From assembly GCF_003334355.1 (NCBI RefSeq), contig NZ_QOWP01000001.1: a stretch of DNA of 64,000 bases; one strand, 5' to 3'. Position numbers: made by a program. Within the stretch, counting starts at the first letter, position 1; the number at the start of each line of letters is the position of its first letter. The DNA comes from Escherichia coli (lineage in GTDB: Bacteria > Pseudomonadota > Gammaproteobacteria > Enterobacterales > Enterobacteriaceae). Positions 8,501-11,500 of the stretch are shown here, piece by piece.

Positions 8501-11500
8501 CAATATGGGAAAAACCGACCGCAGCGCCAACCCTTCGCCGGGCAACAAGAAAGGCGGTCTGGCAAACGTGGTAGAGAAGGCACTCGGCTCCATTGCTAAA
8601 TCGGGTAAAAGCGCAATTGTTGAAGTGCTGTCGCCCGGTCAACGCCCGACTAAACGCGGATTAATTTACGCCGCGACGCCAGCCAGCGATTTTGTCTGTG
8701 GCACGCAACAGGTGGCTTCGGGTATCACAGTGCAAGTGTTTACGACCGGTCGTGGTACGCCGTACGGCCTGATGGCGGTACCCGTCATTAAAATGGCAAC
8801 CCGCACCGAGCTGGCGAACCGCTGGTTTGATTTAATGGATATTAATGCGGGCACCATCGCTACCGGCGAAGAAACTATTGAAGAGGTGGGCTGGAAGTTG
8901 TTCCACTTTATTCTCGACGTCGCCAGCGGGAAGAAGAAAACCTTCTCGGATCAATGGGGGCTGCATAACCAGCTGGCGGTGTTTAACCCGGCACCGGTGA
9001 CCTGATTTCTTTTGGAACGTCCCTCGCAAAACATGGCCTTAGTGCCATGTTTTTATTGTTTAAAGCCCCCACGTCCATTAATAATGCATTTGCATTACCT
9101 TAGTTCAAGCTTATAATTTGAGCAGAAAACAGGCTGTAAAAGGACAGTGAATCATGCCCGCTAATGCTCGCTCTCACGCTGTACTGACCACTGAATCAAA
9201 GGTCACGATACGCGGACAAACAACTATCCCCGCGCCAGTGCGTGAGGCCTTAAAACTGAAGCCAGGCCAGGACAGCATTCATTACGAAATTCTGCCTGGT
9301 GGGCAAGTCTTTATGTGCCGACTGGGAGATGAACAGGAGGATCATACTATGAATGCATTTTTGCGTTTTCTGGATGCAGATATCCAGAACAACCCGCAAA
9401 AAACTCGTCCATTCAACATTCAACAAGGAAAGAAACTTGTCGCTGGCATGGACGTCAACATTGATGATGAGATTGGCGACGACGAATAATGGATTTTCCA
9501 CAAAGGGTTAATGGTTGGGCGCTATATGCTCATCCCTGTTTTCAGGAAACCTACGATGCTTTAGTTGCCGAAGTCGAGGCATTAAAGGGAAAAGATCCTG
9601 AAAATTATCAGAGAAAAGCTGCCACAAAGTTATTGGCGGTGGTCCATAAAGTGATTGAGGAGCATATCACGGTCAATCCATCATCACCGGCATTCCGTCA
9701 TGGCAAGTCGTTAGGCTCTGGGAAAAATAAAGACTGGTCACGGGTAAAATTTGGTGCTGGTCGCTATCGTCTCTTCTTTCGTTACAGTGAAAAAGAGAAA
9801 GTCATCATTCTGGGATGGATGAACGATGAAAACACGCTGCGCACCTACGGTAAAAAAACAGATGCCTATACCGTATTCAGTAAAATGTTAAAAAGAGGAC
9901 ATCCTCCTGCCGACTGGGAAAGCCTCACCCAAGAGACAGAAGAAAACCATTGATGGTGTTCACAATGCCCGCCGAACGTATTCGTGTTGACCAGCGGGCA
10001 CCCTTTCTCACTCCCCGACCAGAATCACTTCAACCCCAGCCTTTCGCAGTCCTTCCAGACTATCCGCAGGAATGCCTTCATCAACAATGATCATGTCGAT
10101 ACGTTGAGTATCAATGATCTTATGTAAACTGGAACGATTGAACTTACTGGAATCGGTGACTACGATGATCCGTTCCGCAACTTCGCACATCCGGCGGTTT
10201 AAACGGGCTTCATCTTCATTATGCGTGCTGACGCCGCGCTCCAGATCGATCGCATCTACACCAAGAAACAGCATATCGAAGTGGTAATTTTGCAGCGATT
10301 GTTCAGCCTGATCGCCGTAAAAAGATTGCGACTGACGGCGCAAATGCCCGCCGGTCATCAGCAGCTCAACGCCTTCCGCTTCCAGCAAAGCATTAGCCAC
10401 GTTCATACCGTTGGTCATCGCAATTACGTCAGTGTGCTTGCGCATCAGACGAGCAATCTCAAAAGTGGTGGTCCCGGAATCGAGGATCACCCGATGACCT
10501 GGCTGAATCAACTCAACGGCAGCTTTCGCAACGCTGCGTTTCATCGCGGTGTTCAGTGCGCTTTTATCTTCCACTGATGGCTCGACTGACGGCGTCGTGC
10601 TATCGCAGATCAACGCGCCACCATAGGCACGCACAGCGATCCCCTGCTTTTCCAGAAACGCCAGATCGTTGCGGATCGTCACGGTAGATACGCCATACAA
10701 TGCCGACAGATCGTTAACCTGCACACTCCCTTGCTGTCGCAGACGCTGAATGATCTGTTCTCGTCGCTCGCTGGTGCCTGTCACTCGCTTCTCACCTGAA
10801 GCGTCGGTATTACTCATAGTAAGTCCTTTCGTAAAACTTTCGTTTCATTTCGTTTTGCCTATTAACGCCTTTCTATTAAGCAAATGCAAGCCCACCTTGC
10901 CCATTGACGCAAGCTACTCTCGTTTCAGTGACTTTCATTATGTTTCTTTTGTGAATCAGATCAGAAAACTACTGTCTTTCGTTTTATTTTTATCTCACCA
11001 TGACGCAGTATCAACTGAAACAAAACGAAAGATTAATATCGCAGTAATCTGAACTGGAGAGGAAAGTGAAACATCTAACAGAAATGGTGAGACAGCACAA
11101 AGCGGGCAAAACAAATGCAATTTATGCCGTTTGTTCCGCACATCCGCTGGTGCTGGAAGCTGCAATCCGCTACGCCAGTGCAAACCAAACGCCGTTACTG
11201 ATTGAAGCAACCTCCAATCAGGTAGACCAGTTCGGCGGTTATACCGGAATGACGCCCGCCGATTTTCGCGGCTTTGTTTGTCAGCTCGCCGACTCGTTGA
11301 ATTTCCCGCAGGATGCGTTGATTCTGGGTGGTGACCATCTGGGGCCAAACCGCTGGCAAAACCTGCCAGCCGCTCAGGCAATGGCCAATGCCGATGATTT
11401 GATTAAAAGCTACGTTGCGGCAGGATTCAAAAAAATCCACCTTGATTGCAGCATGTCCTGTCAGGACGATCCAATTCCCTTAACTGATGACATCGTGGCT

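What the first reader, a model, noticed from the sequence alone, without database searches (positions are those of the whole stretch)
9082..9953. prlF-yhaV toxin-antitoxin pair with TAATG overlap and a perfect palindrome in its promoter
The antitoxin stop and toxin start overlap by one nucleotide (TAATG at 9487-9491), the usual arrangement for translational coupling. A perfect 7-3-7 inverted repeat (taatgca-ttt-tgcatta, 9082-9097) lies just upstream of a tataat hexamer, consistent with an autorepression operator. This is the only toxin-antitoxin or defence-like element I can see in the window.
Basis: partly seen in the sequence, partly recalled or inferred. Interest (0 to 1): 0.3.

Follow-up and report, generated by a model that had tools for sequence, protein, structure and literature searches.

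The report
Known E. coli prlF-yhaV toxin-antitoxin operon

Summary
The window is E. coli chromosome. prlF (9154-9489) and yhaV (9489-9953) lie between garD and agaR. The garD-prlF spacer and PrlF are identical to K-12 MG1655; YhaV differs at 4 non-conserved residues. The TAATG stop/start overlap (9487-9491) and TATAAT (9112-9117) are as described. The palindrome at 9082-9097 is real but is 7-2-7 (TAATGCA-TT-TGCATTA, 16 nt), not 7-3-7, and it contains the predicted -35 hexamer (TTTGCA, 9089-9094).

Alone the palindrome is not significant: 7% of shuffled spacers contain one. Comparison makes the case. The same 16-mer (YAATGCAnnTGCATTA, at most 2 mismatches) lies upstream of PrlF-family genes in 13 of 16 compared loci, in Gamma- and Alphaproteobacteria and a Deinococcota MAG, with proteins only 30-48% identical. 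It always overlaps core promoter elements, and some plasmids carry 2-3 tandem copies.

A YhaV model has a RelE/ParE fold; the PrlF N-terminus is AbrB-like. No other TA or defence element is annotated in the window. Verdict: already known, low interest.

The parts
9028..9053 (+). Terminator-like hairpin of garD (10-bp stem followed by a T-rich tail), which separates garD from the prlF promoter
   Evidence: arms 9028-9037 and 9044-9053, 100% complementary, then TATTGTTT
9082..9097 (.). PrlF-YhaV operator: perfect 7-2-7 palindrome TAATGCA-TT-TGCATTA
   Evidence: It is conserved upstream of PrlF-family genes across phyla and invariant among enterobacterial orthologues while the flanks diverge. Literature: the complex binds palindromic promoter DNA (PMC7781912).
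9089..9094 (+). Predicted -35 hexamer TTTGCA, lying inside the palindrome
   Evidence: 17-nt spacer to TATAAT, 10 of 12 consensus matches. Predicted only; no transcription start site data were seen.
9112..9117 (+). Predicted -10 hexamer TATAAT
   Evidence: The block TATAATT is invariant in six enterobacterial promoters.
9140..9144 (+). Shine-Dalgarno AAGGA of prlF, 9 nt before the ATG
   Evidence: duplex with the 16S rRNA 3' end is -5.3 kcal/mol
9154..9489 (+). prlF (sohA), a 111-aa antitoxin and autorepressor with an AbrB/MazE-like N-terminal DNA-binding domain (about residues 11-50) and an acidic C-terminal tail
   Evidence: Identical to K-12 PrlF.
9487..9491 (+). TAATG stop/start overlap (1 nt) between prlF and yhaV
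   Evidence: Overlaps of 1, 4 or 8 nt occur in 8 of the 14 homologous loci that have an intact YhaV-family partner, and gaps of 2-24 nt in the other 6. The VapC-partnered Paracoccus locus also has a 4-nt overlap.
9489..9953 (+). yhaV, a 154-aa RelE/ParE-fold ribosome-dependent mRNA endonuclease toxin
   Evidence: AF2 model pLDDT 92. The top 42 Foldseek PDB hits are all RelE/ParE-superfamily toxins. Four substitutions relative to K-12, none at an invariant column.

Best explanation
This is the chromosomal type II toxin-antitoxin operon prlF-yhaV of E. coli.

- Transcription. A sigma-70 promoter (-35 TTTGCA, -10 TATAAT) downstream of the garD terminator drives one bicistronic mRNA.
- Translation. 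prlF is translated from its own Shine-Dalgarno sequence. yhaV has none and starts at the A of the prlF stop codon (TAATG). It is therefore probably translated by ribosomes that terminate on prlF and reinitiate, which ties toxin synthesis to antitoxin synthesis and keeps it lower.
- Neutralisation. PrlF dimerises through an AbrB/MazE-type swapped-hairpin N-domain. Its C-terminal part holds YhaV, a RelE-fold ribosome-dependent mRNase, in an inactive PrlF2-YhaV4 complex.
- Autorepression. That complex binds the 16-bp palindrome TAATGCA-TT-TGCATTA, reportedly as a cooperative dimer of hexamers. Because the palindrome covers the -35 hexamer, binding should exclude RNA polymerase and autorepress the operon, with the toxin acting as co-repressor.
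- Release. Loss of the labile antitoxin would both free YhaV and derepress the promoter.

Shown here: gene identities, promoter and operator geometry, operator conservation, the YhaV fold, the AbrB-like N-domain, and the absence of a yhaV Shine-Dalgarno sequence.
Taken from the literature: complex stoichiometry, DNA binding, toxin activity.
Inferred: repression by -35 occlusion, termination-reinitiation coupling, and the derepression step.
For: Identity:
- 100% match over 1 kb to an E. coli chromosome, annotated prlF and yhaV.
- The garD-prlF spacer and PrlF are identical to K-12 MG1655.
- NCBIfam and Pfam family hits.

Operator:
- YAATGCAnnTGCATTR (at most 2 mismatches) lies upstream of the antitoxin gene in 13 of 16 compared loci. 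These include alphaproteobacterial plasmids at 33-43% identity, a Rhizobium MAG at 30% and a Deinococcota MAG at 35%.
- The chance of a match with at most 1 mismatch in 200 nt is about 3e-5 per locus.
- Plasmid copies carry 2-3 tandem palindromes with a 17-18 bp period.
- In six enterobacterial promoters the only invariant blocks are ATGCAwTTGCATTA and TATAATT, separated by a variable 14-nt spacer.
- A divergent E. coli promoter variant changes only the spacer and the ribosome-binding region.
- The palindrome always overlaps core promoter elements. It covers the -35 in Enterobacteriaceae and fills the gap between a TTGACA-like -35 and the -10 in Alphaproteobacteria.

Proteins:
- The YhaV AF2 model has pLDDT 92. 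Its top 42 PDB matches are all RelE/ParE-superfamily toxins, including PfiT, HigB2, RelE, YoeB and ParE. The best E-value is 1.8e-4 and target-normalised TM reaches 0.79.
- A PrlF-family profile hits AbrB and SpoVT N-domains at E = 2.6e-4.

Coupling: 1-nt overlap and no Shine-Dalgarno sequence for yhaV.

Literature:
- PrlF2-YhaV4 hexamer and cooperative binding to palindromic promoter DNA (PMC7781912).
- Toxin as co-repressor (PMC8138530).
- Single transcript with an antitoxin-to-toxin mRNA ratio of 1.11 (PMC5535158).
- Ribosome-dependent cleavage before G (PMC8546651; PMC11980606).
Against: - The primary paper (Schmidt et al. 2007, PMC2699681) is not in the held library. [quoted passage not shown]
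- No transcription start site data were found, so the -35/-10 assignment is a consensus prediction.
- The palindrome alone is within chance expectation.
- The PrlF monomer model (pLDDT 75) gave no significant fold match. Pfam MazE (E = 0.0023) and TIGR01439 (27.1 bits against a cut-off of 28.3) are marginal for the single sequence.
- Reviews disagree on whether YhaV needs the ribosome. PMC5408214 says it is ribosome-independent in vitro; later work says dependent.
- Six of the 14 homologous loci with a YhaV-family partner have gaps of 2-24 nt instead of an overlap, so coupling by overlap is not a universal feature of the family.
Confidence: 0.93

Rival explanations
1. The palindrome is a chance feature of an AT-rich spacer, or just part of the -35 region, and the real PrlF-YhaV operator lies elsewhere in the promoter.
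For: 7.1% of dinucleotide shuffles of the 148-nt spacer contain a comparable inverted repeat, and the window holds 28 such repeats against 21 +/- 4 expected. The 16-mer occurs at least 120 times in viral contigs with no prlF or yhaV nearby. I could not read the primary footprint or EMSA data.
Against: The same 16-mer recurs upstream of PrlF-family genes whose proteins are only 30-48% identical, in different classes and phyla and in unrelated flanking DNA. It is invariant where neighbouring promoter bases vary. It is multiplied in tandem on plasmids. No other conserved block apart from the -10 exists in the enterobacterial alignment. A review explicitly says the bound DNA is palindromic.
Confidence: 0.03
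2. The module works mainly as an anti-phage abortive-infection or defence element rather than as a stress or housekeeping TA module. This is the 'defence-like' part of the reader's framing.
For: RelE/ParE-superfamily toxins are discussed as defence toxins in PMC11980606. Homologues are common on plasmids: 332 PLSDB records, often next to other TA pairs.
Against: Neither protein hits any PADLOC model. None of the 120 viral loci examined encodes PrlF or YhaV, although that sample was chosen by the DNA motif, not by protein. The locus sits at a fixed chromosomal position between garD and agaR in about 95% of complete E. coli genomes, not in a defence island. No phage phenotype was found in the papers read.
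Confidence: 0.05
3. Regulation is by PrlF alone as a classical repressor, or by conditional cooperativity in which excess YhaV releases the complex from DNA, rather than by simple toxin co-repression.
For: Conditional cooperativity is common among type II TA systems, as discussed in PMC8138530. The prlF1 C-terminal mutation derepresses prlF (PMC7781912), which shows that the C-terminal or toxin-binding part matters for repression.
Against: [quoted passage not shown] Nothing I could run distinguishes these modes.
Confidence: 0.25

Closest known systems
E. coli K-12 PrlF(SohA)-YhaV type II toxin-antitoxin system (b3129-b3130; Schmidt et al. 2007)
   Same: Same locus between garD and agaR. The 148-nt promoter region and PrlF are identical. 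Same TAATG junction and same palindrome.
   Different: YhaV carries T31A, T145S, R148Q and T153N relative to K-12, none at a family-invariant column. The neighbouring aga cluster is intact here but partly deleted in K-12. No functional difference is expected.
MazE-MazF / AbrB-SpoVT swapped-hairpin repressors
   Same: The PrlF N-terminal domain matches AbrB and SpoVT N-domains (family profile E = 2.6e-4; Pfam MazE_antitoxin E = 0.0023). Like MazE, it autorepresses through a palindromic site in its own promoter.
   Different: The partner toxin has a RelE/ParE fold, not a MazF/CcdB fold. The reported stoichiometry is PrlF2-YhaV4.
RelB-RelE, HigB-HigA and other RelE/ParE-superfamily ribosome-dependent mRNases
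   Same: The YhaV model superposes on RelE, HigB2, YoeB, ParE and PfiT. It is reported to cleave mRNA in a ribosome-dependent way, before G, as RelE and HigB do.
   Different: YhaV is longer (154 aa against about 85-110 aa), with an N-terminal strand pair and two long helices. Query-normalised TM is only 0.4-0.5. Its antitoxin is AbrB-like rather than a ribbon-helix-helix or HTH protein. No experimental structure of PrlF or YhaV is in the PDB by sequence.

Membership tests
Type II toxin-antitoxin system, PrlF/YhaV family | Two small adjacent co-oriented genes, antitoxin first, closely spaced or overlapping, behind their own promoter | tested here: met
   prlF 9154-9489 and yhaV 9489-9953 with a 1-nt overlap. 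A promoter-like site follows the garD terminator.
Type II toxin-antitoxin system, PrlF/YhaV family | The antitoxin matches the curated PrlF family model | tested here: met
   NCBIfam NF007429 equivalog, 170 bits against a cut-off of 125, full length. Pfam PF15937, 7.2e-42.
Type II toxin-antitoxin system, PrlF/YhaV family | The toxin matches the YhaV family model | tested here: met
   Pfam PF11663 Toxin_YhaV, 7.5e-54, residues 12-150. NCBIfam has no model that hit.
Type II toxin-antitoxin system, PrlF/YhaV family | The toxin has the RelE/ParE (BECR) fold with conserved basic residues | tested here: met
   AF2 pLDDT 92, pTM 0.87. The top 42 Foldseek PDB hits are all RelE/ParE-superfamily toxins. 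K87, R94, R98 and R118 are invariant and R85 nearly so in 13 homologues. Which arginines were mutated experimentally was not checked.
Type II toxin-antitoxin system, PrlF/YhaV family | The antitoxin has an AbrB/MazE swapped-hairpin DNA-binding N-domain | tested here: met
   The family profile hits AbrB and SpoVT N-domains at E = 2.6e-4 to 1.8e-3. The single sequence is marginal (Pfam MazE 0.0023; TIGR01439 27.1 bits against 28.3). The monomer AF2 model gave no fold match, which is inconclusive.
Type II toxin-antitoxin system, PrlF/YhaV family | Autoregulation through an operator in its own promoter | tested here: met
   Phylogenetic footprint of the 16-bp palindrome overlapping core promoter elements. 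Physical binding could not be tested here and is reported in the literature.
Type II toxin-antitoxin system, PrlF/YhaV family | The toxin arrests growth, the antitoxin neutralises it by direct binding, and the antitoxin is protease-labile | not testable with these tools
   Taken from the literature only (PMC7781912; PMC5408214; PMC8546651).
Recognised anti-phage defence system (PADLOC catalogue) | A component protein matches a defence-system model | tested here: not met
   No PADLOC hit for PrlF or YhaV at E <= 0.01.

The most novel reading that the evidence does not exclude
The PrlF operator is a nearly universal 16-bp 'address' shared by chromosomal and plasmid-borne PrlF-YhaV paralogues. 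For example, an E. coli IncF plasmid copy whose PrlF is 46% identical carries two CAATGCAnnTGCATTA sites. A plasmid PrlF could therefore repress, or titrate repressor from, the chromosomal operon, and the reverse. That would be transcriptional cross-talk or anti-addiction between paralogous TA modules. A minority clade (Acetobacter, Thalassospira, Paracoccus) has escaped this by co-changing hairpin residues (R21K, A27K) and the operator (to GTAAGG-type palindromes).
Probability: 0.25. Interest if true: 0.4.

Novelty: already known. Interest (0 to 1): 0.08.

Why it matters
It matters little as a discovery. The system, its complex and its palindromic operator were published in 2007, and the locus here is identical to K-12 in the promoter and antitoxin.

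The useful outcomes are these:
- The annotation can be trusted.
- The proposed EMSA is redundant.

The cross-phylum invariance of the operator, its tandem multiplication on plasmids, and a possible residue-operator co-variation are modest side observations. They could interest people working on TA cross-talk or on how AbrB-type hairpins read DNA. No experimental structure of PrlF-YhaV appears to exist.

Tried and rejected
- Reading the primary papers failed. Schmidt 2007 (PMID 17706670 / PMC2699681) and Snyder & Silhavy 1992 (PMC206513) are not held, so I relied on reviews.
- A single-protein scan of genome contigs gave only 13 loci, of which 8 were informative. The plasmid tblastn was much richer.
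- Reverse test: I scanned viral contigs for the 16-mer and got at least 120 occurrences. None lies near a PrlF or YhaV ORF (the HMMs were checked on the window proteins). The motif alone is therefore not diagnostic, and the module is not evidently phage-borne in that sample.
- The fold search with the PrlF monomer model gave only noise. This is expected for an obligate swapped-hairpin dimer with a disordered tail.
- A search of the window for further copies of the operator, allowing up to 3 mismatches, found only one 3-mismatch site at 19134, which is within chance. There is no evidence for a local PrlF regulon.
- I considered the palindrome as an RNA hairpin or terminator and rejected it. It has a 2-nt loop, lies upstream of the predicted start of transcription, and the garD terminator is the separate hairpin at 9028-9053.

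Full report
**What is in the sequence**

The region 8800-10300 and the ORF list show four genes:
- a 523-aa ORF ending at 9005 (garD);
- a 111-aa ORF at 9154-9489;
- a 154-aa ORF at 9489-9953;
- a convergent 269-aa ORF at 10008-10817 (agaR).

TATAAT is at 9112-9117. The inverted repeat at 9082-9097 is perfect, but it reads TAATGCA-TT-TGCATTA: 7-nt arms with 2 nt between them, 16 nt in all.

The promoter scan finds one + strand site in the spacer: TTTGCA (9089-9094), 17 nt, TATAAT, matching 10 of 12 consensus positions. The -35 hexamer therefore lies inside the palindrome. A terminator-like hairpin for garD sits at 9028-9053.

**Is the palindrome more than chance?**

Not by itself. The window contains 28 perfect 7-nt-arm repeats with a 0-4 nt loop, against 21 +/- 4 in dinucleotide shuffles. 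7.1% of shuffles of the 148-nt, 38.5% G+C spacer contain at least one. The sequence alone would not justify calling it an operator.

**Identity**

- The 1-kb stretch is 100% identical to an E. coli chromosome. It is present in 5,168 of 5,426 complete E. coli genomes, always annotated garD / prlF / yhaV.
- The whole window is collinear with that chromosome at about 99.5% identity.
- Against K-12 MG1655 the 148-nt garD-prlF spacer and PrlF are identical. YhaV differs at T31A, T145S, R148Q and T153N, none at a family-invariant column.
- PrlF matches the NCBIfam PrlF equivalog NF007429 (170 bits, cut-off 125) and Pfam PF15937 (7e-42). YhaV matches Pfam PF11663 (7.5e-54).

**Comparative test of the operator**

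I collected PrlF-family loci from representative genomes and from plasmids. The tblastn search found 332 plasmid records, of which 12 were fetched.

A motif YAATGCAnnTGCATTR with at most 2 mismatches lies upstream of the antitoxin gene in 13 of the 16 loci compared:
- E. coli and Pseudocitrobacter;
- Enterobacter (TGATGCAATTGCATTA);
- C. freundii and E. coli IncF plasmids, Pantoea, and Candidatus Fukatsuia;
- Pseudosulfitobacter, Roseivivax, Bradyrhizobium and Afipia;
- a Rhizobium MAG (30% protein identity, identical 16-mer);
- a Deinococcota MAG (35% identity, the reverse-complement 16-mer).

The chance of a match with at most 1 mismatch in 200 nt is about 3e-5 per locus.

Some plasmid loci carry arrays at a 17-18 bp period: three copies in C. 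freundii and two in the IncF plasmid, Pantoea and Fukatsuia.

Among six enterobacterial promoters the only invariant blocks are ATGCAwTTGCATTA and TATAATT. A variable spacer of constant 14-nt length separates them, and the DNA upstream of the palindrome is unrelated in two of the six. A divergent E. coli promoter variant has all its changes in that spacer and around the ribosome-binding site.

The motif always overlaps core promoter elements. It covers the -35 in Enterobacteriaceae. In the alphaproteobacterial loci it sits exactly between a TTGACA-like -35 and a -10 that begins at its last TA. This is the pattern expected of a repressor operator.

**Proteins**

- An AlphaFold2 model of YhaV built on 13 homologues is confident (pLDDT 92, pTM 0.87).
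- Its top 42 Foldseek matches in the PDB are all RelE/ParE-superfamily toxins, including PfiT, HigB2, RelE, YoeB and ParE. The best E-value is 1.8e-4 and target-normalised TM reaches 0.79.
- YhaV is larger than these toxins, with an added N-terminal strand pair and two long helices.
- The PrlF monomer model (pLDDT 75) gave no meaningful fold hit.
- A profile of 16 PrlF-family sequences hits AbrB and SpoVT N-terminal domains at E = 2.6e-4 to 1.8e-3. This agrees with the weak single-sequence MazE and AbrB matches.
- Neither protein has a sequence-detectable solved structure.

**Translation**

prlF has an AAGGA Shine-Dalgarno sequence (-5.3 kcal/mol to the anti-SD). The 20 nt before yhaV pair no better than a random window position (-2.7 kcal/mol, 44th percentile). 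Together with the 1-nt overlap, this makes termination-reinitiation coupling the likely route of YhaV synthesis. That is an inference.

Of the 14 homologous loci with an intact YhaV-family partner, 8 have overlaps of 1, 4 or 8 nt and 6 have gaps of 2-24 nt. The VapC-partnered Paracoccus locus also has a 4-nt overlap.

**Literature**

The founding paper is not held, but reviews that cite it are.
- PMC7781912: PrlF-YhaV forms a PrlF2-YhaV4 hexamer that binds cooperatively, as a dimer of hexamers, to the palindromic DNA of the promoter upstream of prlF. The prlF1 allele derepresses prlF and acts through Lon.
- PMC8138530 lists prlF-yhaV, tentatively, among modules in which the toxin is a co-repressor.
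- PMC5535158 reports a single transcript with an antitoxin-to-toxin mRNA ratio of 1.11 and higher antitoxin translation.
- PMC8546651 and PMC11980606 describe YhaV as a ribosome-dependent RelE-clade mRNase that cleaves before G. An older review called it ribosome-independent in vitro.

**The rest of the window**

The annotation of the collinear genome lists tdc, yhaB/yhaC, rnpB, gar, aga and yra fimbrial genes, and then rsmI through dacB. All are metabolic or housekeeping genes. Rfam finds RNase P RNA, SraG, three leaders, naRNA4 and two tRNAs, and no type I antitoxin RNA. PADLOC has no model matching PrlF or YhaV.

**Verdict**

The finding is already known and of low interest.

The side observations are the deep conservation and tandem multiplication of the operator, a possible co-variation of hairpin residues with a variant operator, and a probably inactivated toxin in one Enterobacter genome. 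They are recorded separately.

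Noticed in passing
L015:431-482, L016:452-485, L017:600-632, L018:614-647 (compare window 9082-9097): Plasmid-borne PrlF-YhaV loci carry 2-3 tandem copies of the operator palindrome at a 17-18 bp period. The C. freundii plasmid has 3. The E. coli IncF plasmid, Pantoea and Fukatsuia have 2. The E. coli chromosome has one. In the two enterobacterial plasmids the array lies about 180 nt upstream of the annotated start.
   Followed up: partly
L022 about 645-662, L025 about 650-670, L026 about 640-690; alignment A2 columns for PrlF residues 21 and 27: Three PrlF-family loci lack the TAATGCA motif: Acetobacter, Thalassospira, and Paracoccus (the last paired with a VapC toxin). 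They carry GTAAGG-type palindromes instead, for example GTAAGGGAATTTCCTTAC. Their antitoxins have K21 and P-K27 where all motif-bearing ones have R21 (one has K) and P-A27. This may be protein-operator co-variation, but the sample is small and the loci are not phylogenetically independent.
   Followed up: partly
L006:1834-1842: In Enterobacter sp. BIGb0383 the yhaV start codon is followed directly by TAA (ATG TAA). prlF, the palindrome and TATAAT are all kept. The toxin is probably inactivated while the antitoxin/repressor is retained.
   Followed up: no
L019, L020, L023, L024, L009 (30-60 nt upstream of the antitoxin start): In alphaproteobacterial loci the palindrome sits exactly between a TTGACA/TTGAAA -35 (2-3 nt upstream) and a -10 that starts at its last TA. 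In Enterobacteriaceae it covers the -35 instead. The operator is the same but its register relative to the promoter differs.
   Followed up: partly
window 2124-2390: A 120-nt tandem repeat (2.3 copies, 89% match) lies directly downstream of the RNase P RNA gene rnpB (2368-2744, minus strand). Each unit ends in a GC-rich hairpin.
   Followed up: no
window about 12850-16100, against K-12 L150:5702-6626: The N-acetylgalactosamine cluster (agaW-agaE-agaF-nagA) is intact in the genome collinear with the window. K-12 has agaW and agaA pseudogenes with the intervening genes deleted, so the window is not from K-12.
   Followed up: no
L028:2570-3380: In E. coli EC23HZZ201 an IS1A element directly follows the garD terminator region, and everything from prlF-yhaV through the aga cluster to yraH is missing. 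This accounts for one of the roughly 5% of genomes without the TA module.
   Followed up: no
window about 31456-31540 (dolP-yraQ spacer): A repeat unit of about 89 nt is present in one fewer copy in the window than in NZ_CP025859.1. It is probably REP/BIME-type copy-number variation.
   Followed up: no
L004:1-110: In Escherichia sp. MOD1-EC7003 the similarity to the window's prlF promoter begins just upstream of the palindrome, at ...TAATAATGCATTTGCATTA. The DNA further upstream is unrelated to the garD 3' end. Either the cassette sits in a different context or the 750-nt contig is rearranged.
   Followed up: no
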